This document shows positions 25,869 to 47,264 of a DNA stretch of 63,333 nt, one piece after another. The stretch is taken from the NCBI GenBank assembly GCA_022813865.1, contig JALDZX010000084.1:1-63333 (forward strand). The letters run 5' to 3'. Source of the DNA: Xylographa opegraphella (lineage: Eukaryota). Position 1 is the first letter of the stretch. Each line of letters opens with the position of its first letter. The position numbers were made by a program, and so were the translations under genes. Under the pieces are notes generated by a model. It was given only the letters and a program-made list of their open reading frames with translations. It did no database searches and had not been told where the DNA came from.

Positions 25869-25982
25869 CTGGCACGATGATGTTTCTCTGACACGATATT
25901 ATTTCTCTGACACGATGATGTTTCTCTGACACGATGATGTCTCTCTGACACGATGATGTCTCTCTGACACGATGACGTTTCC
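25869..25982. repeat. Minisatellite, 6 x 19 bp (consensus CTGACACGATGATGTYTCT)
   Basis: Six contiguous units starting at 25869, 25888, 25907, 25926, 25945 and 25964, each with 0-3 mismatches. Confidence 0.92.
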
Positions 25983-30217: not shown

Positions 30218-31284
30218 ATGTCCTTTGCCTTTCTAAAAAATGTGTTATTTCCACGCTCGCGACGAGCTGGGAATGGTGAGCAGGCGAAGAGGGAGGCGAG
30301 GCCGGATACTTACCAGGATAGCGACAACGAAAGTGAGTACCGCTCGTGGATGATCAAAATTATTTTCATGATGAAGTACTAAATAATTTCATAGTGACCA
30401 ACCCGGCATCAAGACCCCGGTCGACGACGAGTAGCAGTACGACCTTGGATCTGGAAGCTCAGAAATGCGACTCTTGTCGACCCCGTGTCACCAGCCAAGA
30501 AGCCGAGCCCAAACATCGCCGCTTCAAACCAAGCCCGCGTATGATCTCGGATGCCATCATTGGCCTCTCCGATGGATTGACTGTTCCCTTCGCCCTCACC
30601 GCTGGTCTCTCCTCCCTGGGAAACGCTCGGCTCGTTGTTCTTGGCGGCTTGGCTGAACTCATCGCCGGAGCCATCTCCATGGGCCTGGGAGGTTTCATCG
30701 GCGCGAAGAGCGAAGCGTAAGCTGATGCATCCTCTGTGTGTGGACAGCCTGCTGACCCGCGGCGTAGTGAATCATATAGAGCTACTGTCGCATCGACGAA
30801 AAAGCTTATTGAAACATCACCTTGCCAGACATCAAGTCTCGTCCACGCTGTCTTCAAACCCTACGGACTGTCTGCCATGAGCACCAGCACGATCTCCAAC
30901 AACTTACACGAATCGCCACCCGAGCTTCTGGACTTCCTCATGCGTTTCCATCACCAAATGCCAGAACCATCGACGTCTCGCCCTTTTGTCTCGGCTGCCA
31001 CGATCGCTGCAGGCTACTTCATCGGCGGCTTCGTACCTTTATTACCATACTTCTGCGTGCAAACCGACGAAGTCCTCCTTGCTCTGTATATCAGCATCGG
31101 TGTCATGGCCGTCGCACTCTTCGCCTTTGGCTGGGTCAAGACAGGCGTCGTGAGCGGGTGGAGGGGAAGGAAGAATATCACCGCCTGCGCGATCGGTGGC
31201 GTGCAGATGATTGTCGTCGGAAGCGCAGCCGCCGGTGCCGCTGTGGGGCTTGTCCGAGCCATCGACCGCGGACAAGACGTCTGA
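30218..31284 (+). CDS. CCC1: Vacuolar iron transporter Ccc1/VIT1 (CccA)
   Basis: Exons 30218-30332, 30395-30716, 30768-31284. SDAIIGLSDGLTVPFALTAGLS, ELIAGAISMGLGG, GYFIGGFVPLLPY. Confidence 0.94.
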
Positions 31285-32296: not shown

Positions 32297-32775
32297 GGTG
32301 GTAAGGTGGTGGGTGGTGGGTGGTGGGAACGCCGGGGGGCTGCTTGGGAGGGATGGTGGTGCGGTTGATGTGGGAAATGTTGCCGAGTGGGTAAAAGTAT
32401 CCCGGTCCGGCTGGGTCGGGGTTGCGTTTGGCCGGGATCCGGATGTCGGGCCGTTGTGGTTAGGGCCCGTGCCCTGATTGTCGCATAATTTGGGACCGAA
32501 ACTTAACCCGATGGGGTGATTGGAAAGACCGTCGGGATCCATTACTGTCGGGTTATCATAACTCTCCTATACTGAATTATGCTTAAGCCCATCTGTTCTA
32601 CTGAGCGCTTGCGTTTTAGTAAGATGCGTTTTTCATTGAGAGCATGAGCTATATAAAGTCCATGCCCCCCCTCTCTGCTGATTGAGATTTGTCTTGCAAT
32701 CGCTGCCCCATCTCGCGCCTCTCCATCCTTGGGTTCTGATGCTCTAGCTATCAAGCTCTCCTATATCAGCACAGC

Positions 32776-33819
32776 ATGAGTCCTCCCTCCCGCTTCTCCC
32801 TGAAGCTCAGAGCCCTGCTCTGGCGCTTCCTCAGCAATCTGTCCTCCTCCTTCTTCGATCGATATTTCACGACTCCGCGCCCCCCTCGAGCCTCATTCGT
32901 AGTATCAATCCCCACCACGATTGCCAAACCGCATGGCCAGATACCCCTCGAGTTTTACGGCCCACCCACTTATCTGCAGCACAGGAAGCCGTTCAACCCC
33001 GCAGGCGGCCCGGGCGAGACCAAGCCGTTCCCCGTGGTGATCAATTTCCACGGCGGAGGCTTCACCATCGGTGGGCCTGGCGGTGATGCGCGCTGGGCAG
33101 CCGCCGTCGTTCAGGAGGGAGTCGTGCTGATCAGCGTGGGCTACAGACTCGCTCCCGAGCATCCATTCCCCACCGGCATCGAGGACGGCGTCGCAGCCAT
33201 CGTGTGGGTATGGGAACACGCCGAGGAGTACAATCTCGACAAGTCGCGGGTCATCATCAGTGGATTCAGCGCCGGGGGCAACTTCTGCTTCACCGTCCCG
33301 ATGCGGCTCTACACAGAGCTCGAACAACGGAAGCAGCAAGGTCGCCCGCTGGCTGCTTCCAAGTCCGGCAAACTGGCCGGTCTTCTGGCCTTCTACCCCA
33401 GCGTCAACTGGACGCAATCCCGCGCCGAACGCACGGCCTCCAATGCGATCTCGGGCGTCAAAGGCCCGATTCCAAAAGCGCTGTTCGACCTCTTCGACCA
33501 CTCCTATCTCTACCCCGGACCGCTGGACATGAGTTCCCCGTACTTATCTCCCGGCCTGGCAGCAGACGAGATGGTGCTGAACGCACTTCCCCATTCAATC
33601 TACATCCACACGTGTGAATGGGACCAACTGCTCGTCGAGGCCGAGACGTTCCGCGAAAGGCTGAAGGGCCTGGGCAAGCGCGTGACTGGGAGCATGACCA
33701 AGGGGGTGGCTCACGCGTGGGATAAGCGGCCCTCGCTTGCCAGAGGGAACCCGCTGAGGGATGAGGTGTATACGGAGGCGACGGGCGCGATGATGAAGAT
33801 GTTGGGCGGGAATGTTTGA
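32776..33819 (+). CDS. Alpha/beta hydrolase fold-3 (HSL-family esterase)
   Basis: Intronless. HGGG oxyanion motif, YRLAPEHPFP, GFSAG nucleophile elbow, EWD acid, HAW His. Confidence 0.92.
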   Translation: MSPPSRFSLKLRALLWRFLSNLSSSFFDRYFTTPRPPRASFVVSIPTTIAKPHGQIPLEFYGPPTYLQHRKPFNPAGGPGETKPFPVVINFHGGGFTIGGPGGDARWAAAVVQEGVVLISVGYRLAPEHPFPTGIEDGVAAIVWVWEHAEEYNLDKSRVIISGFSAGGNFCFTVPMRLYTELEQRKQQGRPLAASKSGKLAGLLAFYPSVNWTQSRAERTASNAISGVKGPIPKALFDLFDHSYLYPGPLDMSSPYLSPGLAADEMVLNALPHSIYIHTCEWDQLLVEAETFRERLKGLGKRVTGSMTKGVAHAWDKRPSLARGNPLRDEVYTEATGAMMKMLGGNV

Positions 33820-34807
33820 CGTCCGGGGATTCGCCGGTATGTATGCCAGGCGGCTTCATACGTCAGCAGCTAGCTACATGAGTCGCTATCACTACGACTC
33901 ACCCCTTCTCAAGTGACTGGTCTTATCAACCTTGTTCTGACTCTCATCTCGCCTTCGTCACTTCGGACCTCCTTCCCACGCAAGCTGAACTCCGCCTCAC
34001 AGCCTGCGGCATGACTCCCTTCATGCCAAAGACCTTGAAGCCACCCTCGATCCTTCCGCCCTCTTCTGCCATTTCACCACCACATCTATCACCATCACCA
34101 CAACCACAACCCACATCTCAGATCCACCAGCGCAGAAGTCGCCAAACCTCCAGCATGCCCTCCCCCTTCTTCCACTCGACAACCACCAACTCAACCCCGA
34201 GCTCGAGCTCGAAACCGAAACCCATAGCCCCCTCTTCGCCTAACCCGTCCCTCTACATAACCGCCCCCTCCTCCCCCCTCCTCTCCAAACCCCCAAACCC
34301 CAAACCCACGCCGCTCCCCACCCCCAACCCCACAAACCCAAGTGTCCCAAAGGCGTGTCTGCCTGCCCCCACAGAGCAAAGCAGAGCCAGGGGGACGAGA
34401 ATAGCTGCGCGGGGGGATGAGATGATCTGAGATAGGATAAAGACAGGAGATTAACTAAACAGCGATGGAGAGTATGCGGTTATTCATTTCATTTCAGTTT
34501 TCGATAAGAAATGCGGAGCGAGATACAGGATAGGATAGAAAACCAACAAACAGCGTGCTGGAATGGAATGGAAATACCACGAGTATGGCAACCAACACGG
34601 GGTTGTAGCTAACGATACAGCAAACGGCCCATGAGCGTAGCGGTCCCAATCCCAATAGCGCTGCCAACTGCTGGGTTTCATAGACCTGAACGATCATGTG
34701 CGGAAGAGGGGCGCCAGAGTTCATAACCAGCATACCAGCCCAACCACCGCACCATCCCCGCACCAAGAAACCCACAAATCCCACCCATCGCCTTCCAAAA
34801 CCTCCCC

Positions 34808-36512
34808 TCACAAACCCCCCCACCCCTCCCTAACCCTCACCCGGACCCTAAACGCCCTCGGCTCAGTCGTCAAGCTCGTCTTGACCGCATTACACGCCAG
34901 CGCATCCAGCACGGGCGCGTCGCGCGGATCCCGGGGCGGCAGGAAGCGCAGCGCGACCAAGAGGCGCACGAAGGCGGTGTACAGCTCGCGGTTGGCGAGG
35001 TGGGAGCCGGCGCACATGCGCGCGCCGGCGCCGTAGGCGTAGTGCGGGGTGCCGGTGCCGTCGGTGGTGCCCAGGTAGCGGTCCGGGAGGAAGAGGTGCG
35101 GGGTGGGGAAGTGCGTGGGGTCGTAGTTGGCGGCGTGGGCGTTCTGTGGGGGGATGGGGGGGTTAGTGTGGGGGATGGGAGGGGTGGGGGATTGTGGGGG
35201 TGGGGTGGGGTGGGGGTGGTTACCATGTAGAAGGTCGTGCCGGCGGGGATGGTGGCGTTTTGCCATTGGATGTCTTTGACGCTGACGCGCGGGAGGCAGA
35301 TGGGGATGACGGACCAGAAGCGCAGGACTTCTTTGACGAAGGCGGTGATGTACGGGATGCGTTCTTCCGCGAGGCACTTGTCCCATGCGTCGCCGTCGGG
35401 GTATACTTTTTGGATTTCGGCGTGGGCTCGTTCTTGGATTTCTTGGCCGTGGGGGGAGGATAGGTAGCCGATTGCCATGATGAGGTTGCCGGGTACGGTA
35501 TCCAGGCCGGCGGAGACCATGGTGAGGCAGATGGATTGGATCTCGGCTGGGGGGTAGCGTGTTAGTGGGTGAGGTGTGGCGGAGGAGATGGCTGACCTTA
35601 CCTTCGTTGAGGATTGCCTCTGGGTCCTTGAGGATGTTGCCCGTGATGCAAGGCTTGTCTTCCCCCTTCGCAATCTTATCCCTCAGCATATTCAGAAGCA
35701 AAGCCATGTACTTATCTCGCCGTGCCCGGTACTCGCCCGCTTGCGTGTTTCTGCTCGGCCACAGACGCAGCAGCGGGATATAGTCCTGCCAGTTATTGCT
35801 GGTGCTCCGAAGATTCGACACCACACGTTCAACGTGCACAATCTCTCGCAGAAGCTCGTCGTTGATATTGCCATCGATCCTGATACCATAGTTGAGCGTT
35901 AAGCTGGTGTTCAATGCAAAGCGCTGGAAATAGGGGTTCGGGTCGATATCGATCTCGCCGTTTTTACTGTCCGTGAGGAGTTCTTTGATGCTGGCTTTAC
36001 TCTCCAAGTCGATAATAGGCATGTAACTCTGTACGGCGGGCCGGTTCAGTGCGGTTGCAGCCGCCTTCCGGCGTCGCTTGCATGACTCATCCCACGGCGA
36101 CGTTCCGATGGTGAAGCCTTGAGAAGAACTCAGCACAGTGTGGAACGTGTGAAGCGTAGGCCTGGATATCAGAGCTGATTGGTTAGTGATCCAGAGATGT
36201 CTGACACTGTCGAAGGTATTCGCGAAAATAATTCGCTAGACATGAACCATCAGCTTGGTGTTACACGAGTTCACTCGTCTCAACGGTTCCGACCTTGTTT
36301 CCCATCCGGACCTGGAAGACCGGTCCATACTGCTTGACCCATGCACCTGCATTCTTTGCATGTTCATTGCCTAATTGAAGGAGATTTCCAAAGATAGGTA
36401 CTCCAGGGATCTCAGGAATGCCCTTGATCTTGGGGACATCTGTACGATTGAAGTAACGCAGGGCGAAGAAGAGGAGCGCTGCAATTGCTATGCCAATCGT
36501 TTGATACGCCAT
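34808..36512 (-). CDS. phacA: Cytochrome P450 CYP504A-like, phenylacetate 2-hydroxylase
   Basis: Exons 36512-36294, 36235-35602, 35546-35224, 35143-34808. SQGFTIGTSPWDESCKRRRKAAATALNRPAVQSY, AGLDT I-helix, EVLR, heme YGAGARMCAG. Confidence 0.92.
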
Positions 36513-36930
36513 GGCGCCACACTATTGTCGAAGGACGAAGTCCGTGAACAGTGGACAATCGCAAGTGTGAAACTTCGAACTTGGTCACGGAGCGAGTTAA
36601 TGACAAGGTTCGAACGGGCAATGCCTTTATGTCCTGACAGAAGACCTCCTTCACCTGAAGCTTTCTTGTCGTCGCTCTTCTCACCGGTCACTTCCGTCCG
36701 GGGTAGCGTGACGTAGGGTTGAAGTAAATGCGGGGAACGAAGCTAAGGGTTAGCCCTGCCGAAAAGGCGGAACGGAGCCGCCACGCGACAATCATCTTCA
36801 AGCAGCGACCAGTCAAGTCGTGCCGGAGATTTCCCCTGTTCGTCGGGTCATATTGCATAGCAAAGTCTCCGGCCAGCCTTGATCGAGTATTGAGTAACCA
36901 AAGTACATGCAACGTCTGCTGCATACACAA

Positions 36931-38330
36931 CTAGGAATCGCTCGCGAGATGTGCGGGCAGGATACTTCCTACACACTCACCAAAGCCAACTCGAGCTCCG
37001 TCACCGGTGACAGACCATCCTCGCATGGTGACAGTATCGCCATCGCATACGAAAGTCCGTTCCTCCCCGTCGTTGAGCTTGATAGGCACTCTTCCGTTCG
37101 AGCACTGCTCCAGCAAGCTTCCTTGTGTACCGGGTTCCGTACCACTGATGGTGCCGGATCCTAGGAGATCACCGACGCGCATTGGGCATCCAGTGACGGT
37201 GTGGTGTGCGAGCATTTGAGGGAAGGAGAACAGGAGGTTTTTAGCATTCGTGTGTGTGATAGTGGTCGTCGTTCCGGTCGGAGCTGCTTGACATCAGTAC
37301 TGATATCTTGTTGGAAGACATATACAGGGTAGCACAGACTAATCAGATCGACTTCAAGGTTGATATCGTAGACATTGTTGGTCTGGCCTTCCTGAAGATA
37401 TGGTAGTAATTCCGTCTCGTTTTCCAAGCCCCTACATCTGAAAGGTTCCAAAGCGTCCGCAAGAACTATCCATGGGCTGATGGAAGTCCCAAAATTCTTT
37501 GCATTGAATGGGCCTAAAGGTACATATTCCCAAGCCTGGATATCCCTTGCAGACCAGTCGTTCATCAGCACAAAGCCAAAGAGATGATCTTCTGCTTCAT
37601 TGACAGGTATGGGATCACCAATGTGATTCGGCTTGCACACAAACGCACCCAACTCAAGTTCAATATCCAAACGCTTGGAGGGATGGAACATCGGGACTTT
37701 GGGCTCCGCCATAGCGTTCTGTATGCTTTGGCCACATGGTCGTCGGATCTGCGTGCCTGATACAACAACCGAAGAGGCCCGTCCATGATATCCTACCGGT
37801 AAGTGATTATAATTAGGCTGCAAAGCATTGTCCGGACCTCGAAACAGGACTCCCACATTGTACGCATGATTTCGGCCCGCATAGAAGTCCGTGTAATCCC
37901 CAATCAGCATCGGTAGGTGATTTGTCACTTCAGTCAACGGTATCAAAACGTCATTTCGCGCCTTCAGATTGGACTTGAGTATGTGAGGGTGAACTGTGTC
38001 ATCTGCGAAGATATTTTGCAAGTACATTCGCACTTCGCGGTGAATTGAACGACCAAGAGCGGCAAAAGCATTCAGTGTTGGTTGGGAAAAGACGGCTAAT
38101 TCTTTTTGAATGGATGGCATTTCCGCAAACCCACCACCAGCAGCAAACATTTCTAGATCGAGTGCATATTCACCAATTGCCACCGCCGGACGATGCTTAC
38201 TTCTGGCTTCTGAGGAGATGATACCGAACGGTATGTTAGCCACGGAGAAGTGAGATTCGGCGGGTATAGGAATCCAGGATCGGGTAGTCATCGTCGTCTC
38301 CACACCGGACTTGGTCGCGCTGTCAACCAT
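36931..38330 (-). CDS. fahA: Fumarylacetoacetase
   Basis: Exons 38330-37340 and 37283-36931. SHFSVANIPFG, GDYTDFY, PVGYHGRASSVVVSG, LDIELE, NDWSARDIQAWEYVPLGPFNAKNF, GDLLGSGTISG. Confidence 0.95.
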
Positions 38331-38930
38331 GTCGAAGTATGGAGTTTGCCAGTAGCTCTGCGAATGATGATCTCGGAGTTCAACTATTGTATTACGCCGA
38401 TGACGATCAGCTCACACCTGATCAAGGATGGCATTATACGGCTTTCACGGTTGATGATTGAGCTCTTCTCCTTGGCAAGGATATCCGCAGAAGCCGCCAA
38501 GGCAGAACGAGGACTAGAGACCGATTCGGGCCTAGCGGCGAGCCACTTTGAACCTCGCCAATTCATCCGGCTTCTGTCTGAAAATGCAAGATAACTACGA
38601 GTCGTACGGGGAGGAAATAGGGAGACACTAGAGTGCGATTCCTTTGGTGAATCTTCCAACGAATCAGAAGGCTTATGTGAGATTTATCCTGCGTAAGCAG
38701 ATTTACTCAGGAGTAGGCTATGGAGTTGATCCACTCAGATCTATCAATTACAATTTCTAGCAATTGATCGAAGTCAGAGATCCACTCCGGCGCTGCTACG
38801 TGGTAGCAACGTAGGACCAAGTGATCGTTCCAGCAAGGAAAACATCTGTGCTGTATAGCAGGTCTCCCATTCATGAAATGCTCAGCCACCACCAGCCACA
38901 GCTGAAAAATTCCATCACCATGGAGCACTT

Positions 38931-40256
38931 TCACACTCCCCCCTGCTGTTCCGCCTGCGCCTCCCCCTTCTCCCCACCGGCAGCCTCATCTCTCTCGACC
39001 CAATGCCGCAGCGGTATAGTCAGCAAACTACTCAGCAGGACCTGAATGATCTGAAAGATCACCATCGGGATCCGCAGCTTCGAGGCCTCGACGTCGGACA
39101 AGCCAACGAACATGACGCTCGACAGGGGGACGCCCATAGCAGGCGTCTTCAAAGGAACGCAGAAGACGACGGCGATGGTGTCCTTCTTCGGCAGCCAGAA
39201 GATGGAAGCGACGAAGCAGATGGCCAGCCAGACGATGTAGAGGGCGGCGGAGATGAAGACGACGAAGATGACGTTGCTTCCCTGCACACTTTTGAACGCC
39301 CCGGATTCGAAAGCCTCGTCGAAGGTTTGCCAGATGATGACCAGGAGCGCGAACGAGACGAGCTTGTTGAGTTGCCAGGTGATGAAGATTTTCTTCGTCA
39401 AGTTGGGCAGGAGATTGAGCACGATTTGACCGACGAACTGTGTTCATGATCAGATTCCTTCGTATAGGGTACAAGCGACGTCTTCGAAGAAGACTTGGTA
39501 CAATGATATATTCACTTACAATGGGAAGGAACACGGTGAGACCAAGCTGCTTCAGAACCCGACTATATATTTCTTGGTAGCCGCCACCATTATTCGGCAA
39601 GCTATCTGTATACCATACTCCCGTGGAGAGGTACATATTGATGAGGACTGGGGACAAGAACGGGCCCAAGAAATTGCCGATGGTGGATTGCACAATCGTC
39701 AGTGCCTCGTTGCCATTGGCTTTCCGTGTCATCCTGACGTTGAAGGCTATGCTTGAGGAAGTTAGCGTCCTGACTGAACGTCAATAGTGCTGGATCCCAA
39801 CACCTACGTTGTCGGCAAACAACCCAGTACGATCATACCCACCAGTAAACTCGGATCCATGAAGTTCTTGTTGGTGGCAGCAGCACTAACCACCGCAAAC
39901 GTCACAGCGGAAGCCATCAGGTACGACTGCACCTGGATGAAAAGATGTGCTTTCCACCGGGAGAGATTGTCGACCAGGGTTCGCGTAGGCAGCGTAACTC
40001 CGTTGATGAAGAAGATCAGCGAGACGCACAAATAGTTGATGACGTTCTCCTTCTGGAACTGCTGCGCGGTTGGCACTTGCACCTGCGAGGATATGGCGAT
40101 CAGGATTCCCAGAATGAACAGAAACCATTGATCGAGGAGGAACCACGCAACGCGGTCTGCGTGTCTCCTGATTGCAGACTTTGGCGGATGCGTGTTGGGG
40201 GCGACTTCTTGTGTGCTCGATGCAGTTCCAGCCAGAACCGGGCCATTTGTGTCCAT
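38931..40256 (-). CDS. SBF-like (sodium/bile-acid symporter, SLC10A7/Rch1-like) membrane transporter
   Basis: Exons 40256-39808, 39751-39520, 39437-38931. DQWF, IFFING, LGCLPTTIAFNVRMTRKANGN, STIGNFLGPFLSP, FCVPLKTPAMGVPL. Multiple TM segments. Confidence 0.9.
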
Positions 40257-40732
40257 CGTTGGCTTCTAAGCAGCAAGACCTATGCTCAATACTCGAATCG
40301 GGCTGTGTAAGATTGCTTCCGGTGGAGGAAGGACGAGTGAGCTGTTCATTGCAGAAGCCGAGCAGTGGAAAGCTTTAAGCAGGTGGTGAACACCATGGGA
40401 TCAGGACCCGTGCGGCCTTCTCTCGCCAACTCGCCAAGGCTCTCCAGCCGACTTTTGTTGAGCGACTAATTCCCGTTTGAAGTCGTACGGCGATAAAGGC
40501 CAACGTCATCGTGTATCTCCGTTGGCGAGCGAGAGGCTCTGTGGATTATGCCCTTTCTAGGAAAGTGTCACCAAGTGTTCGGGCCGATCCCGTAGTCCGA
40601 TGTGGCGATCGCGCAGGGGCCGCGGAGATCAAACGTGGGCAGGACGAGCCAGTATTGAGATGATGGTTCTTATCAAGGGATGTTGGTCTTTTGTGCAACG
40701 GCCGGATCAGTTCCGGGCCAGTGTCGACGGAT

Positions 40733-40844
40733 GCCAAGACGTGCCAAGAGATGCCAAGGACGTCCAAGCTATGCCAAGACAAGATAGGTCATGCCAAGCC
40801 TGTTTATGCCAAGTGCAGCCAAGTGCGCAATATTGAACGCCAAG
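40733..40844 (+). promoter_or_regulatory. Array of 8 GCCAAG (PacC/Rim101 consensus GCCARG) sites
   Basis: GCCAAG at 40733, 40743, 40753, 40773, 40793, 40808, 40818 and 40839, plus TCCAAG at 40763. Outlying copies at 40433 and 41102. Confidence 0.75.
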
Positions 40845-41607
40845 ACGCCGCACCCGTTCTGCAGGTGTCGGTATCAAATGGATGGGAGGTTGCGGTGCGC
40901 GTGGGTGACACAGGAACCAGCAATAGCAGTCACACCGTTCTCCATCACGTCTTTATCAATTATGGAGCATCTTACCTGCGCATCAGCAGATCGTCAAGCC
41001 ATCGAGTAATCCCTTGGGACGTTCGCGATCGGCGTCGTCGGGAGCATACACAAGGTAAGGCAAAATTGTTTGTATCCAGTGCCAACAGCCTCGAGGCACC
41101 TGCCAAGGCCGAGAACAATGTCGTGCTCTGTCTGAAGTGGTAATCAGAAATCCCATGCCTTCTAATCGCATTGCTCGACTTCGTGCATGTGAATCTTACC
41201 TTTCCCGCCCACATGGTGAAGTCATGGCACTGAGTTATGGCTCAAACACAACGCTGTGGGTACTGGCTTATCTCAATGCCTCTTGTCATTGGTGCACCTG
41301 GCGGAACAGACTGCCAAATTTGATATCGACAAAGAATTGCTGCGGTGTGTCTTCCGTCTCGGACTTCTTGTCGATCAATCAGTTTCATCGGCATGCTGAA
41401 GCCCGAGCGTACAGCTCGTGAGTCTCGGCTTTTCGCTTCAGTATCTAGCACGTTCTGTGGCGATTGTCTTGGCCACGGATCGGGGGGTATATATGTACAT
41501 ATCTGTTCTTCGCAATGAATGCTTCCTCTATCACGTAGTCAGTACACTTGGTCTCTGATTTCCACTTTCGATAGAACCAACAACACATTCAAATCAGCTT
41601 CACCGCT

Positions 41608-42775
41608 ATGTCGACCGTTTCGAAAGCCCTGGCCGCGTTCAAGCCGCAGACGCTTGGAAGACCTGCTTCGCTGATAGATAGAGCTGTGCCAACAAGCCTA
41701 GCCCAGAACAGCAAGCAACACACGCATTCCATCACGACCAAGTCCTTTGAGACAGCACGGACCATGGTGACCGTCGCTCAGCCGATGGTGAGCAACTACT
41801 ATCCAGAAAAACATCCCTTGGTCCAGGAAGCGAGCTATCTTCGAAGCATGGTCAAGGAAGCCCCGTACATATTTGAGACGCAAGAACCGACCGATTCTGA
41901 TGCGTATCGGTTCCCACTCGGTACTCTGTTCAAGGCACCGACCCCGGAAGTCGGCCTTTATATGAAGGACATGCAAGCCTTGGCACTCAAGGAACATGGT
42001 ATCGTCGGCATCGAGCTCGGCTTCAACGATCCAGACAGCCACTTCATGCTCAAGCTCGTGGAAGCCATGGGGTGTACTCCCGACTCACACTCGAGCACCC
42101 AAGGCGCTCTCTGGTAAGTCCCATCATCAATCCTCGGGGATCCCATACTGATTCTCAAGGGATGTTACATATCGCCCCGAAGGGACAACAGGTGGCAACG
42201 GCGACATTGCTCACAGCCGATCCCATTCCCTTGGAGAGTTCGCGTGGCACACGGATGGTAGCTATGAGCCAGTGCCCCAGCGATACTTCGGCTTCCATAT
42301 CCTGCACCCCGACAAGCAAGGCGGGGGCGTATTCCGCGTCCTCAAAGCCGACGACCTCATCTCCATGCTGTCTCCACAGGCCGCAGACATCCTCATCAAC
42401 ACCGAGTTTGACATCAAGGTCCCCGCCGAATTTTATCGAGGAGTGGAGTCGAACAAGGGCAAGTTGCTGGAGCTGGATGACCAGACTGGCCGAGTGTATG
42501 TTCGCTTCCGCCGCGACATTCTGCCGGATCCACCAAGCTCCGATCCGGCTGCGTGCGAGGCGGTTGAGGAGCTGAACAGGCTGCTTGACCAATCGGAGGG
42601 GCTAGGCACCTCGGTGCCCAACTCTGTCTTCAAGGAGAATACAATCTTGCTGATGGATAACGCTCGCTTCTTACACATGCGCACTGATATCAAGGATCCC
42701 AAGAGGTGGCTGCGACGAGTGAGGTTCCATGGTAATCCGGGACACAAGGCGAAGAGTGAGTTCCCCCTTTGGTAG
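41608..42775 (+). CDS. TauD/TfdA (clavaminate-synthase-like) Fe(II)/2-oxoglutarate dioxygenase
   Basis: Exons 41608-42113 and 42160-42775. HxD motif in FAWHTDGSYE, distal His and Arg in DNARFLHMR...RWLRRVRF. Confidence 0.88.
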
Positions 42776-44205
42776 AGGCAAGTTCAGAATCTGCCTGGTG
42801 TGCTAGCAACGGTGGGTATCCTGGTTCTGAAACGAACGCTCTGTTGCTGATCCTTCCACCGCTATAGAGAGATATAACAATCGATCTCCGCTTCGTAGGA
42901 AATGTTGCGGGCGCTGTGCTGTATGTCCTTGCACCGTTAAATCCCAGAAGCTACTGCCTTAGACTTGTGAGAGAGATGCTGGAACCAGGGTTGATATCAT
43001 GGGGAGAGTTGGATAACGGCCGATACCACATAAAGAGAAATCTAGAGTTTTGGGCCCTTCGTTTGAATTGTTTGTCCGTCTCATTCGATAGAATTAGGAA
43101 ATTGCCAATTGACTTCTTACACGACGAACCGCTGGGCACCGTACCATGCAATCAACATTACACATACACACGACATGAAGCTTGATAGATCATAGGGCAT
43201 AGCCATCTTGCCCACATATTAATTGAGAAAGCATTTGGTACATAGAGTATAGACCCAGATAAATGATTGCATATATGTATCAAAACATCGCAGCAAGTAG
43301 CTTTACGAAGCATACACGTCCACTAAAACCACCTACCGCTGATCAAGTTGAAGCCTGCAAACAATCGAACTACTCCATACAGCTTCCCTCACAATCGACA
43401 TGACAGCCCCTCCACCTACCGCTCCTTCCAGCGCCATCTGTGATAATGGTAGGGCCACACCGCGGCAAATATTTCAGACGAGTGTGATGCATCAGCTATA
43501 AGGTATCCTCATGACTGGCTGAAAGCCATGCGTCCTATTTCACAGCGGTACATCGGACCACGGTGGAAGCTGTGACCCCGACCGCATTAGCGGCTATGTA
43601 GGCCAGTCTAGAATTCAGCGCAGTCCAATGGAAATGTGGTCTGGAGAGCTCCTCCCCTCCCGGATATCCAAAGGAGGTAATTTGGCTGAGGTAGATCGCC
43701 GCGTGTGGCTGGCTGAGGGGAGGAGAGCGGGCCGCTTTGTCGTCGATATTCGTCCAATCAGATCGCACCAAAGCTATAAGGGAGCTTGGTTCCGGCATTC
43801 CCTTCAATCCTCATTCACTTCGTGCTGTTTCTCGAGGCTCCGGCTAGCATGATCTTCTTCAATAGTCTGTGTCATGCATGTGGAAAGGTCCCGCTCGAGC
43901 TTGCGGCGCGTTGACTGCACCGTGGATGGACTATCGATTTGTGTCCTGATATGGCAACGTGAAGGACAATGCCTGTCCGTCTTCTTCAAATGGTGCTGCT
44001 GATGGATCAGCCATGGATCATTCCCAGCTGACCATTGACGGACGTGCAGCTGTGTGACTGCCGATATATAGCTGGCCATGGGACGAGTCCTCAGTCGTCC
44101 TTCTTGGAGTCATCGCCGGATTCCTACTCAAATCTGCTTCGTACTTGTATCAGTGCCGTTCTCCTTGGTTAGCATAGATCGTCGTTGAGTCTTGACTTTG
44201 CCACA

Positions 44206-46780
44206 ATGCGTATCGACGCGGTGTGGGCTGGGTTCATTTACTTCCTGGACATCATCACGTTTCAGTCACCAAAACATGACGCTGTCGAGCAGGCTCCTGT
44301 CCTTGGTGATGCTCACTTCGAAGAGCTGCCCCCTGGCCCTATCTTTACGCCGCCAAGTGCAGATCTTGGAGATAAGATCGAATGTGACTATACGAAGATG
44401 ATTGGGTGGAAGGCTTGCTCATCGGAGACCGATCGTGGATGCTGGTTGAAAGGTCCGAAAGGGGAATATTTTGGCATTAATACGAATTATGAATTGTTTG
44501 TACCAACGGGTATTAATCGTCAGGTACTCCTCTCTCTGATAGCTTTTTACCACTGTTTCTGAACCCTGCGACTAGTACTATCTCGAAGTTACAGACGAAG
44601 AAGGTGCGCTAGATGGCGTTCTCAATACCGGTCTGAAGCTGTTCAACAAGCAATATCCTGGGCCGTGGATACGTACGTGTGTATCTCGTGGTAGTTAATT
44701 GCAATACTGATGTTGGTGTAGAAGCATGTTGGGGAGATACTCTAGGTTGTTTACAACTCGAGGTCTGGTTTCGGAAGCTTCTTACATTCGGTAGAGATTA
44801 CGGTTAAGAACAAGCTTAAGAAGAATGGAACAACAGTACACTGGCATGGTCTACGTCAGTTGGATACGACGGATATGGATGGCGTCAATGGTAAGTATCG
44901 GCCTTTTTCTGCACTTGCCAAGACCCATCCATGTACTTTTTATTGTCGTCCCCTATATTGTCCGAGGCGGGTGGGTGTCAAAACGCTCTGAAACTGCGCT
45001 GATAGCCTGAAAGGAGTCACGCAGTGCCCGATTGCAGTAAGGCCAGTTGTATCCGTGGGGAAGCCCTTCTAACGGTATAGCCTGGCCAAAGCTTTACATA
45101 TAAATTTCGAGCAATGCAATACGGATCTTCATGGTAGGTGGGCATCGGAAACCATAGGGGGAATACCATTACTAAAACCTTCTAGGTACCACAGTCATTA
45201 CTCGCTACAGGTACGTTTTATAAAGGGCCTATTCAGTCAAAGACTCATTGCATGCTGATTACAACACCTAGTATGGGGATGGCATGTTGTAAGCTGTCAC
45301 TAGAAGCTTATTTTGAAGGATGTTTAGAAGGCTGACTGGATCAGGGGCCCGATGACTATCCATGGACCGTCCTCTGCCTCTTATGATGATGCGAGGGCCC
45401 CCATTCTGATGACCGACTGGCTACACAGAAGCGCGTTCGACATCTGGTCTGAAAGTATTCACTATGGTACATCTTTCAGAATGGACAACATACTAGTAAA
45501 CGGAAAAGGATTACCGCCACCGAACACTCCCGCCGAGTCTATCAAAGGAAACCCGGAGAGATATAGCCTAGTGTTTGAAACTGTAAGAAATGACCTAGCA
45601 TGGACGAAGTTGTTGTCGTGCTGATGTTCTCTACAGGGAAAGCGATACTTGCTGCGCCTGATCAATACGTCGGTAGATACTGCTTTCATCTTTGCCATCG
45701 ACAACCATACAATGGAACTAGTTGGAGCCGATTTTGTGCCTATTCATGCTAATGAAACCGACCATGTTGTTGTTGGAATCGGTAAGCCCATCAACATACG
45801 CTGGCTTCGAGGTGTAGACTTAATTTCGAAGGGCAACGTTATCATGTCATCGTTCAGGCGAAAGACAGAGCGGACCATCCCGCTACAGACGGGAATTACT
45901 GGCTCCGTACTTGGCCGGCAAAAGGATGCGGAAGGTACAGAGATGCCCCGTCTGAGAAGACAGGGGTGGTTCGGTATAATTCATCAAGCACGAGCGACCC
46001 CACCACGCAGAACAGAAACTACTCTCTGAAATGCCGTGATCAGGATTATAATACACTGCGACCTATCCTAGAATGGCAAGTAGGACCACCTGGGAATTTA
46101 GGTAGGTCAATCAGCCAAGCGTGTACCACGGCCCCTGACCGTCTTCAATAGCCAAGAATAGTTACTTCGAGGTCGGCCTAGACCCTACCAGCGGGAAACC
46201 TTTCTACCCGGAAGACAAGCAGCTCAACCGCTGGAACATGTTCACCGACACTATGTGGCTCGACTTCTCCAGCCCCACATTGGCCAACATCAACAAGTCG
46301 TGCTCCAGCTGGGACAAGAACTTCGTCGTCATCACCGAGAACCAGAAGCCGGACACGTGGATCTACCTCCTCGTCTCCGGCACCGGCATCCCCCGCACCG
46401 GGCGCTTCTTCCCTCCCGCCGCGCACCCCATCCATCTGCACGGGCACGACTTCGCCATCCTCGAGCAGTCCGAGAAGCCGTACCAGATCGGCGTGCTGAA
46501 CCTCAAGCTGGACAATCCGCCACGGAGGGACGTCGCCCTGCTGCCCGCGGACGGCTACCTCGTGCTGGCGTTCAAGTCGGACAATCCGGGCGCTTGGCTC
46601 ATGCACTGCCATATCGCGTGGCACGCTTCCGGCGGGCTGGCGCTGCAGATTTTAGAGAATGAGGCGCAGATTAGGATGAGTGAGCAGCAGAAGAGGGACT
46701 TGAAGAATACGTGTGACGATTGGAAGCTTTGGAGGGCGAGGGCAGGAGTGGGTTTTGAGCAGGATGATTCCGGGATTTGA
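44206..46780 (+). CDS. Laccase / multicopper oxidase (AA1, ascomycete type)
   Basis: 12 exons: 44206-44523, 44576-44672, 44722-44745, 44795-44890, 45014-45036, 45081-45133, 45186-45210, 45272-45288, 45345-45582, 45637-45781, 45832-46101, 46152-46780. Copper motifs [24 protein letters not shown]. Axial Leu and C-terminal DSGI plug. Confidence 0.93.
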
Positions 46781-46936
46781 GGGGGGGTGGGATTGGNNNN
46801 NNNNNNNNNNNNNNNGGGGGGTATTGGTTATGTACTTTTGGTGCTGTGGAGAGGTGGTTTGTGTATGTGTTTTTTTCTGGCTCGGGTACTGTATCTTACA
46901 TGACAACTGTGTTGTGCTATTTCTGTTTCTACCAAC

Positions 46937-47264
46937 TGTGTTGTGCCAAATGTGGTGTGCCAAATGTGGTGTGCCAAATGTGGTGTGCCAAATGTGGTGT
47001 GCCAAATGTGGTGTGCCAANNNNNNNNNNNNNNNNNNNNNNNNNNNNNNNNNNNNNNNNNNNNNNNNNNNNNNNNNNNNNNNNNNNNNNNNNNNNNNNNN
47101 NNNNNNNNNNNNNNNNNNNNNNNNNNNNNNNNNNNNNNNNNNNNNNNNNNNNNNNNNNNNNNNNNNNNNNNNNNNNNNNNNNNNNNNNTGTGGTGTGCCA
47201 ATTGTGGTGTGCCAATTGTGGTGTGCCAATTGTGGTGTGCCAATTGTGGTGTGCCAATTATGGT
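46937..47264. repeat. 14-bp tandem repeat (TGTGGTGTGCCAAW)n spanning an assembly gap
   Basis: About 6 copies of TGTGGTGTGCCAAA left of the N-run and about 5 copies of TGTGGTGTGCCAAT right of it. Confidence 0.93.

What the first reader, a model, noticed from the sequence alone, without database searches (positions are those of the whole stretch)
40433..41107. Helically phased array of PacC-type GCCAAG sites in a divergent promoter
Seen: 8 perfect same-orientation GCCAAG hexamers within 112 bp. Five (40733, 40743, 40753, 40773, 40793) sit at exact multiples of 10 bp, with a TCCAAG filling the 40763 slot. The spacers have diverged while the hexamer is retained, which argues for selection on the motif and not simple repeat slippage. 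Two more copies flank the array. Established: GCCARG is the PacC/Rim101 site. Inference: a cooperative, switch-like ambient-pH element controlling the transporter and/or the dioxygenase.
Basis: partly seen in the sequence, partly recalled or inferred. Interest (0 to 1): 0.72.

Follow-up and report, generated by a model that had tools for sequence, protein, structure and literature searches.

The report
Dense GCCAAG site array in promoter
A lichen fungus carries eight identical copies of the DNA word read by the fungal pH-sensing regulator PacC, packed into 112 bases between two divergently transcribed genes; it is probably a young, lineage-specific pH-control element, but no binding or expression data exist.

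Summary
Eight perfect + strand GCCAAG lie at 40733-40844, TCCAAG at 40763 and single copies at 40433 and 41102. No more than 3 clustered in any of 300 shuffles. It is the only complex hexamer with 7 or more copies per 112 bp in 364 kb of fungal DNA. Hexamer identity between units is 0.96 and flank identity 0.26, which is random, so the core is kept specifically. The array grew partly by 10/20-bp tandem duplication. It lies in a 1351-bp gap between an SBF-like (Rch1/SLC10A7-type) transporter and a TauD-like dioxygenase of Xylographa opegraphella, named. GCCAAG, with T at -1 in 6 of 8 copies, matches the PacC/Rim101 site. Site density is 8.9/kb, against 3.1/kb reported for PacC-activated promoters. 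PacC is the best candidate reader (about 0.5). Helical phasing is only partial, and it is an automatic by-product of a 10-bp unit. Cooperativity is untested. The array is absent from 40 of 40 promoters of distant transporter homologues. No RNA data or sister-species DNA could be reached. It is a new, unusually dense member of a known kind; interest is modest.

The parts
40733..40844 (+). Array of 8 perfect GCCAAG hexamers (starts 40733, 40743, 40753, 40773, 40793, 40808, 40818, 40839) plus degenerate TCCAAG at 40763
   Evidence: at most 3 per 112 bp in 300 shuffles; only complex hexamer with 7 or more copies in 364 kb
40730..40781 (+). Block A: 10-bp period (5.1 copies, 67% matches) that is also a 20-bp period (2.6 copies, 84% matches), showing tandem-duplication origin
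   Evidence: Tandem Repeats Finder
40808..40826 (+). Block B: perfect 10-bp duplication GCCAAGTGCA x1.9, a second and younger duplication whose spacer is unrelated to block A
40433..40438 (+). Isolated GCCAAG 177 bp upstream of the transporter ATG
41102..41107 (+). Isolated TGCCAAG-type site on the dioxygenase side
41297..41302 (-). GCCAGG (GCCARG variant) on the minus strand
41468..41473 (-). GCCAAG on the minus strand, 15 bp upstream of the TATATA box
40257..41607 (.). 1351-bp divergent intergenic region; 12 GCCARG sites = 8.88/kb against 1.41/kb in the whole window
   Evidence: gene starts
38931..40256 (-). SBF-like (PF13593; Rch1/SLC10A7-type) transporter gene, 395 aa annotated, three exons; ATG at 40256 lies 477-588 bp from the array
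41608..42775 (+). TauD/TfdA-family (PF02668) dioxygenase gene, 373 aa annotated, two exons; ATG lies 764-875 bp from the array
41488..41493 (+). TATATA box 120 bp upstream of the dioxygenase ATG (candidate core promoter)
40699..40715 (.). CGG-N11-CCG dyad (inner CCGGA-N5-TCCGG palindrome) ending 17 bp before the first hexamer; a Zn2Cys6-type site by form only

Best explanation
The array is a homotypic cluster of binding sites for the pH-responsive zinc-finger factor PacC/Rim101. It sits in the shared upstream region of a divergent gene pair of the lichen fungus Xylographa opegraphella. It was built recently, in this lineage, by repeated local duplication of 10- and 20-bp units that each carry one or two sites, and selection then kept the hexamer while the spacers randomised. 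Proposed working: at neutral to alkaline ambient pH the Pal pathway produces the processed, DNA-binding form of PacC. Many adjacent high-affinity GCCAAG sites raise local occupancy, and so raise transcription of the SBF-like transporter (nearer, 477-588 bp), the TauD-like dioxygenase, or both. Activation is favoured over repression because site enrichment was reported only for PacC-activated genes. Shown here: the array, its statistics, the core-against-spacer contrast, its duplication origin, the gene context, and its absence from distant orthologous promoters. Taken from papers: what PacC binds and how site number relates to regulation. Inferred: that PacC binds here, the direction of regulation, the target gene, and any steepening of the response.
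For: (1) Motif identity. All 8 copies are GCCAAG, the consensus used for A. nidulans PacC (passages of PMC7459330), bound in EMSA by M. oryzae PacC (passages of bioRxiv 10.1101/2020.06.22.164590) and by F. graminearum PacC30 as GCCARG (passages of PMC9226496). Yeast Rim101 is stated to bind TGCCAAG (passage of PMC5349140), and T precedes 6 of 8 array copies against 12 of 47 elsewhere (p=0.011). (2) Constraint. Core 53/54 against flanks 32/72; 0 of 20,000 neutral-decay simulations exceeded 40/54 even when the best frame was chosen. Counting only 5 units that are not recent duplicates gives core 30/30 against flank 22/40, P=1.6e-8. (3) Density. 12 GCCARG in 1351 bp = 8.9/kb. Published figures: T. 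virens PacC-upregulated promoters 3.1/kb, random 1.3/kb, downregulated 1.5/kb, and its own pacC promoter 9 per kb (PMC3618310 section 14 and a passage); A. nidulans enaA 5 and enaB 6 sites per kb, both PacC-dependent alkaline-induced transporters; Y. lipolytica Rim101 targets 3-7 copies (passage of PMC8265631). (4) Rarity. It is the densest complex hexamer array in 364,499 bp of fungal DNA. (5) Position. It lies in an annotated gene-free divergent promoter, and the open frame across it has no Pfam match.
Against: There are no binding data, no expression data and no RNA run, so nothing ties the array to pH. The organism's pacC gene could not be examined because no genome is held. The array is not conserved. 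In 40 of 54 fetched loci that had 400 bp or more upstream of a transporter homologue (38-61% identity; about 32 are independent after near-duplicate loci), GCCARG density upstream was 1.19/kb against 1.21/kb elsewhere, and no locus had more than 2 sites per 150 bp. The single syntenic locus, L037, has no array. So this transporter family is not a conserved PacC target by motif count. Part of the copy number is recent duplication, in a genome that makes minisatellites readily: three other arrays lie in the same 63 kb. Some copies may therefore be too young to have been tested by selection. Adjacent sites 10 bp apart may not all be occupiable at once.
Confidence: 0.5

Rival explanations
1. The array is a selectively neutral remnant of a 10/20-bp minisatellite that happens to contain GCCAAG. 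It has no regulatory role and the resemblance to PacC sites is coincidence.
For: TRF finds period 10 (5.1 copies) and period 20 (2.6 copies, 84% matches) at 40730-40781, and a perfect 10-bp duplication at 40808-40826. The same window holds a 19-bp x5.9 array and a 14-bp array of more than 11 copies, so slippage is active in this genome. The array is absent from 40 of 40 related promoters. No expression or binding data exist.
Against: A decaying repeat loses all unit positions alike. Here mean pairwise identity is 0.963 for the core and 0.260 (random) for the flanks, and 0 of 20,000 neutral simulations came near the observed core conservation. The other minisatellites in the window are 89-98% identical across the whole unit, with flank identities of 0.79-1.0, so they are a different class. 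Two blocks with unrelated spacers, and two isolated in-array copies (40793, 40839), all carry the same hexamer.
Confidence: 0.2
2. The array is a real cis-regulatory site cluster, but it is read by a factor other than PacC. Candidates are a lineage-specific zinc-finger or other protein that recognises (A)TGCCAAG, possibly working with a Zn2Cys6 factor at the adjacent CGG-N11-CCG dyad to control this small metabolic gene island.
For: The preference extends to A at -2 and T at -1 (6 of 9 each), so the word read could be longer than the PacC core. A CGG-N11-CCG dyad ends 17 bp before the array. The neighbourhood (esterase, P450, fumarylacetoacetase, transporter, TauD-like dioxygenase, multicopper oxidase) looks like a pathway island of the kind usually run by a pathway-specific regulator. 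Orthologous transporters show no PacC-site enrichment.
Against: From my own knowledge, not tested here, no other described fungal factor has GCCAAG as its site. SltA (AGGCA), CreA, AreA, CCAAT, STRE, CrzA-like, bZIP and E-box words are not enriched in the region and do not overlap the repeats. Pathway-specific sites normally recur in every promoter of the island, yet GCCAAG clusters only here. No transcription-factor gene was recognised among the 50 open frames scanned.
Confidence: 0.15
3. The array acts mainly through DNA structure or chromatin. AA/TT-containing units repeating every 10 bp could bend the DNA or position or exclude a nucleosome; or the array could be a titrating decoy that buffers free PacC without driving the neighbouring genes.
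For: Five units plus TCCAAG are in exact 10-bp register. All sites fall within about a 150-degree arc at 10.5 bp per turn, with R=0.66.
Against: Phase coherence is weak (p about 0.03, with the period chosen after the fact; R=0.28 at 10 bp for all eight). A structural role would constrain dinucleotide periodicity, not an exact hexamer in one orientation. No test of curvature or chromatin was possible.
Confidence: 0.05

Closest known systems
PacC-site clusters in the A. nidulans enaA/enaB promoters (alkaline-induced Na+-ATPase transporters)
   Same: Several consensus GCCAAG sites lie within 1 kb upstream of a membrane-transporter gene, and PacC is an essential activator there (passages of PMC7459330).
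   Different: Those promoters have 5-6 sites scattered over 1 kb. Here 8 sites sit in 112 bp, all on one strand, partly in 10-bp tandem register, and regulation is untested.
Trichoderma virens pacC autoregulated promoter and the PacC-upregulated gene set
   Same: High GCCARG density marks direct activation: 9 sites per kb in pacC itself and 3.1/kb in upregulated genes, against 1.3/kb in random promoters (PMC3618310).
   Different: Those sites are counted on both strands and include both GCCAAG and GCCAGG; no tandem architecture is reported in the text I read. The present promoter reaches 8.9/kb, and its array contains only the GCCAAG form.
Rim101 sites (TGCCAAG) of yeasts, including Y. lipolytica Rim101 targets with 3-7 GCCARG copies
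   Same: The same extended word; T at -1 in 6 of 8 copies here.
   Different: The S. cerevisiae review passage I read gives only the site. That Rim101 acts mainly as a repressor is recalled, not checked. My recollection that the Y. lipolytica XPR2 UAS holds decameric repeats overlapping PacC-type sites could not be verified (0 papers; listing only).
Synthetic 6xGCCAAG probe used to assay F. graminearum PacC30
   Same: A multimerised GCCAAG array is bound specifically in EMSA and thermophoresis (passages of PMC9226496).
   Different: It is artificial and its spacing was not stated in the passages read. The window carries a natural counterpart with 4-15 bp spacers.
Tandem repeats in promoters as a source of binding-site clusters and expression evolvability (general concept, recalled, not checked here)
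   Same: Site number grew by local duplication, in a genome with active minisatellites.
   Different: Here the repeat has aged: spacers are randomised and only the site core is kept.

Membership tests
PacC/Rim101 response element | Core hexamer 5'-GCCARG-3' | tested here: met
   8 perfect GCCAAG in the array and 12 GCCARG in the 1351-bp intergenic region. Site definition from passages.
PacC/Rim101 response element | Extended preference for T at -1 (TGCCAAG, as stated for yeast Rim101) | tested here: met
   T at -1 in 6 of 8 array copies against 12 of 47 other copies in the window, Fisher p=0.011; 4 of 5 non-duplicate units. Yeast site. A similar preference for A. nidulans PacC is recalled only.
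PacC/Rim101 response element | Located in the 5' intergenic region within about 1 kb of a target gene's start codon | tested here: met
   477-588 bp from the transporter ATG and 764-875 bp from the dioxygenase ATG; no annotated gene lies between them.
PacC/Rim101 response element | Site density above the random-promoter background | tested here: met
   8.88/kb against 1.41/kb in the window and 1.2/kb in 54 fungal loci. Published values are 3.1/kb for activated and 1.3/kb for random promoters.
PacC/Rim101 response element | Specific binding by the PacC zinc-finger region | not testable with these tools
   Needs EMSA, ChIP or similar.
PacC/Rim101 response element | pH- and pacC-dependent expression of the adjacent gene(s) | not testable with these tools
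   No RNA run holds the stretch; this is no evidence either way.
PacC/Rim101 response element | The organism encodes PacC and the Pal pathway | not tested
   No whole genome is held. Conservation of the pathway across Ascomycota is established knowledge, not checked for this species. No paper on PacC regulation in lichen-forming fungi was recognisable among the 5 titles and abstract starts listed (listing only).
PacC/Rim101 response element | Sites retained in orthologous promoters | tested here: not met
   0 of 40 promoters of transporter homologues (38-61% identity) has more than 2 sites per 150 bp; density is 1.19/kb against 1.21/kb background. The syntenic L037 has no array. The sister species (77% identical transporter) could not be fetched, so nothing is known at short range.
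Helically phased cooperative site array | Site spacing in integral multiples of the helical repeat across the array | tested here: inconclusive
   The first five sites are in exact 10-bp register (R=1.0). All eight give R=0.28 at 10 bp (p=0.54) and R=0.66 at 10.5 bp (p=0.026). At 10.5 bp per turn, 40733 and 40793 differ by about 100 degrees. The register is explained by 10/20-bp tandem duplication.
Helically phased cooperative site array | Protein-protein cooperativity between bound factors | not testable with these tools
   PacC binding as a monomer is recalled from memory and could not be verified in the library.
Neutral minisatellite | All positions of the unit decay alike; unit identity is uniform | tested here: not met
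   Core identity 0.963 against flank identity 0.260; neutral simulation reached at most 40/54 against 53/54 observed. True minisatellites in the window have flank identities of 0.79-1.0.
Neutral minisatellite | Head-to-tail periodic units | tested here: met
   Period 10/20 at 40730-40781 and period 10 at 40808-40826. This covers part of the array only; the copies at 40793 and 40839 are outside any period.

The most novel reading that the evidence does not exclude
The array is a recently born, copy-number-variable 'pH rheostat'. Tandem duplication of a 10-bp PacC site unit produced what may be the densest natural PacC array described, 8 sites at near-minimal spacing on roughly one face of the helix. 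It recruits an Rch1/SLC10A7-type regulator of calcium homeostasis and a neighbouring oxidative metabolic island into the alkaline response of a wood-dwelling lichen fungus. Expansion and contraction of the array would tune the steepness of the response between populations.
Probability: 0.1. Interest if true: 0.55.

Novelty: new member of a known kind. Interest (0 to 1): 0.3.

Why it matters
If PacC reads this array, it would be a clear natural example of a regulatory site cluster made by tandem duplication and then kept by selection on the site core alone. It would also give a first handle on ambient-pH regulation in lichen-forming fungi, where gene regulation is almost unstudied. It would further link an Rch1/SLC10A7-type transporter, or a small oxidative gene island, to the pH response. 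The underlying principles are already established: PacC sites, multi-site promoters and repeat-derived site clusters are all known. So the gain is an additional, unusually dense case and not a new mechanism.

Tried and rejected
Whole-genome scan for further arrays: no genome is held for this window.

Expression: no RNA holder is listed for 38800-42900. The only holder, X1, may be the source sample.

Laying runs X2 and X3 of the same study at 80% likeness gave only pieces of 21-64 bases in coding parts and no cover of the promoter, so they say nothing about relatives.

Earlier scan notes: nothing for this genome, this sequence or the sister transporter. A word search returned only phage pac-site notes.

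Sister species: its transporter protein is known (P0002), but its DNA is in no collection I could scan.

A sister-species orthologue of the dioxygenase was not among 5 hits or 26 hits. The tool itself calls such a blank weak evidence.

Self-similarity: the intergenic region matches nothing else in the window or in the 54 loci, so it is not a dispersed repeat as far as this material can show.

Coding reading: the 159-codon open frame across the array has no Pfam match.

A GCCAAG trio at 30494-30653 looked like a second candidate promoter but lies inside exon 1 of a VIT1-like gene.

Literature: the recalled XPR2 decameric repeats were not found (0 papers; listing). PacC monomer binding and a -1 T preference for A. 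nidulans PacC were not found. The Rch1 passages mention calcium but no regulation by pH or Rim101. Supplementary tables of the PacC transcriptome papers were not opened, so I did not check whether an SBF-like or TauD-like gene is listed as PacC-regulated there.

Full report
WHAT IS THERE. Perfect GCCAAG hexamers on the + strand start at 40733, 40743, 40753, 40773, 40793, 40808, 40818 and 40839. TCCAAG is at 40763, and single copies are at 40433 and 41102. Between 40650 and 40900 there is no minus-strand copy, and the only other one-mismatch + strand copy is GACAAG at 40778. A contig of run X1 reproduces 38800-42900 with no difference. That run may be the source of this DNA, so this checks the assembly but is not independent support.

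IS IT MORE THAN CHANCE. In 300 dinucleotide-preserving shuffles of the window, the largest same-strand cluster per 112 bp was 1 (100 shuffles), 2 (192) or 3 (8), against 8 observed. To allow for the look-elsewhere effect, I ranked every non-low-complexity hexamer in 364,499 bp of fungal DNA (the window plus 54 fetched loci). GCCAAG at this place is the top entry and the only one with 7 or more copies per 112 bp. That call returned 29 rows with 5 or more copies. Most belong to three ordinary minisatellites of the window, whose flank identity is 0.61-1.0. Only four arrays have diverged spacers.

HOW IT AROSE. Tandem Repeats Finder reports period 10 (5.1 copies, 67% matches) and period 20 (2.6 copies, 84% matches) at 40730-40781. 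It also reports a perfect 10-bp duplication at 40808-40826. So part of the copy number comes from local duplication. TCCAAG at 40763 looks like a unit that lost the G while gaining a base upstream, which kept the register.

The window also holds a 19-bp x5.9 array, and a 14-bp array of more than 11 copies that is interrupted by an assembly gap. Slippage is therefore active in this genome. Those arrays are 89-98% identical across the whole unit. The GCCAAG array is different. The core matches in 53 of 54 positions, against 32 of 72 for the four bases on each side. In 20,000 simulations of neutral decay, with the best-conserved frame chosen afterwards, none exceeded 40 of 54.

Because some units are young duplicates, I repeated the test with five units that are not recent duplicates. 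That gave core 30/30 against flank 22/40, P=1.6e-8. Mean pairwise identity over all nine units is 0.963 for the core and 0.260 for the flanks, which is the random level. I take this as strong evidence for selection on the word, and so for a protein that reads it.

PHASING. Successive gaps are 10, 10, 20, 20, 15, 10 and 21. The first five sites and TCCAAG are in exact 10-bp register. The last three are offset by 5-6 bp.

For all eight sites, the phase coherence is R=0.28 at a period of 10 (p=0.54) and R=0.66 at 10.5 bp per turn (p=0.026, with the period chosen after the fact). On 10.5-bp DNA the sites at 40733 and 40793 are about 100 degrees apart. Exact 10-bp register follows automatically from duplicating a 10-bp unit. 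I therefore read the phasing as a trace of origin, with at most a weak bias toward one helical face. It is not evidence for cooperativity.

CONTEXT. A protein 100% identical to the first exon of the minus-strand gene, from a contig as long as the window, is named as a hypothetical protein of Xylographa opegraphella, a lichen-forming fungus. It is an SBF-like transporter (PF13593). JGI names its relatives sodium/bile acid cotransporter 7, which is the Rch1/SLC10A7 type. In the review passages I read, Candida Rch1 is described as a negative regulator of calcium uptake.

The plus-strand gene is a 373-aa TauD/TfdA-family protein that carries the next locus tag. So no annotated gene lies in the 1351-bp gap. 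The array lies 477-588 bp from the transporter ATG and 764-875 bp from the dioxygenase ATG. A TATATA box lies 120 bp before the dioxygenase ATG, and a CGG-N11-CCG dyad ends 17 bp before the array.

The wider neighbourhood is an esterase, a P450, a fumarylacetoacetase, the transporter, the dioxygenase and a multicopper oxidase. No PKS or NRPS was seen among the 50 open frames scanned.

WHO READS IT. The papers I read in passages agree on the PacC/Rim101 site:
- A. nidulans PacC: GCCAAG.
- M. oryzae PacC: binds GCCAAG in EMSA and acts as both activator and repressor.
- F. graminearum PacC30: binds GCCARG, including a synthetic 6x array.
- Yeast Rim101: binds TGCCAAG.
- Y. lipolytica Rim101: its targets hold 3-7 GCCARG copies.

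In the array, T precedes 6 of 8 copies, against 12 of 47 copies elsewhere in the window (p=0.011). All eight copies are the AAG form.

Density in the gap is 8.9 GCCARG per kb, against 1.4 per kb for the window. In T. virens, PacC-upregulated promoters have 3.1 per kb, random promoters 1.3, downregulated ones 1.5, and the pacC promoter itself 9. A. nidulans enaA and enaB, which are PacC-dependent alkaline-induced transporters, have 5 and 6 per kb.

Other fungal site words are not enriched and do not coincide with the repeats: SltA, CreA, AreA, CCAAT, STRE, a CrzA-like word, bZIP and E-box. PacC is thus the best candidate. By analogy with the T. virens result, activation at alkaline pH is the likelier direction.

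WHAT SPEAKS AGAINST. Nothing links the array to pH directly. No RNA run holds the stretch, no genome is held, and binding cannot be computed.

The conservation test that I could run is negative. A metagenome scan with an alignment of the transporter returned 54 loci. I dropped 14 of them because they had less than 400 bp upstream or the match began beyond residue 60. Several of the remaining 40 are near-duplicates, leaving about 32 independent loci. In those 40, GCCARG density in up to 1500 bp upstream of the match was 1.19 per kb (66 sites in 55,302 bp), against 1.21 per kb in the rest of the loci. No locus had more than 2 sites per 150 bp.

Only L037 has a TauD-like neighbour in divergent orientation. 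That gene looks degraded, the gap is about 600 bp, and it holds no array.

These homologues are only 38-61% identical, about the distance between fungal classes, so they show that the array is not ancient. They say nothing about close relatives. The 77%-identical transporter of X. carneopallida is known only as a protein.

VERDICT. A neutral repeat remnant (0.2) is disfavoured by the contrast between core and spacers. An unknown factor (0.15) or a structural role (0.05) cannot be excluded. In kind, this is a new and unusually dense member of the known class of multi-site PacC-type promoters, apparently born by tandem duplication in this lineage. The interest is modest.

Noticed in passing
window 46932-47264: A 14-bp minisatellite downstream of the multicopper-oxidase gene is interrupted by an assembly gap of N (about 47020-47197). 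Units left of the gap read CCAAATGTGGTGTG (6.3 copies, 97%). Units right of it read TGTGGTGTGCCAAT (5.4 copies, 98%), so two unit variants differ at one base. The unit contains GTGCCAA, a partial likeness to the GCCAAG units.
   Followed up: partly
window 25869-25981: A 19-bp tandem repeat, CTGACACGATGATGTTTCT x5.9, 89% matches; its context was not examined.
   Followed up: no
window 35100-35220: A G-rich array with 8 GTGGGG per 112 bp (C-rich on the minus strand) lies inside the span of the minus-strand P450 gene. It is probably an intron or a low-complexity insert. GTGGGG fits the CreA-type word SYGGRG by form only.
   Followed up: no
window 40699-40715 and 41389-41405: Two CGG-N11-CCG dyads lie in the same intergenic region (13 in the whole window). 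The first, with an inner CCGGA-N5-TCCGG palindrome, ends 17 bp before the GCCAAG array and could be a Zn2Cys6-type site.
   Followed up: no
window 32740-46777: A small metabolic gene island with no PKS/NRPS seen in the window: Abhydrolase_3 esterase, cytochrome P450, fumarylacetoacetase, SBF-like transporter, TauD-like dioxygenase, multicopper oxidase. It is possibly an aromatic-compound catabolic set.
   Followed up: partly
window 41608-42775: The TauD-like dioxygenase has a patchy set of relatives: 59-67% identity to proteins named from Neofusicoccum, Aplosporella, Aspergillus lentulus, Chaetothyriales and Lasallia. No hit from the sister Xylographa species appeared among 5 and 26 hits.
   Followed up: partly
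L037 2765-3230: In the only syntenic metagenome locus, the TauD-like gene next to the transporter matches in two overlapping frames (49% over 93 aa and 32% over 172 aa), as if frameshifted or degraded.
   Followed up: partly
window 30494-30653: Three GCCAAG copies within 160 bp lie inside exon 1 of a VIT1-family (vacuolar iron transporter-like) gene, so they are coding sequence and not promoter sites.
   Followed up: yes
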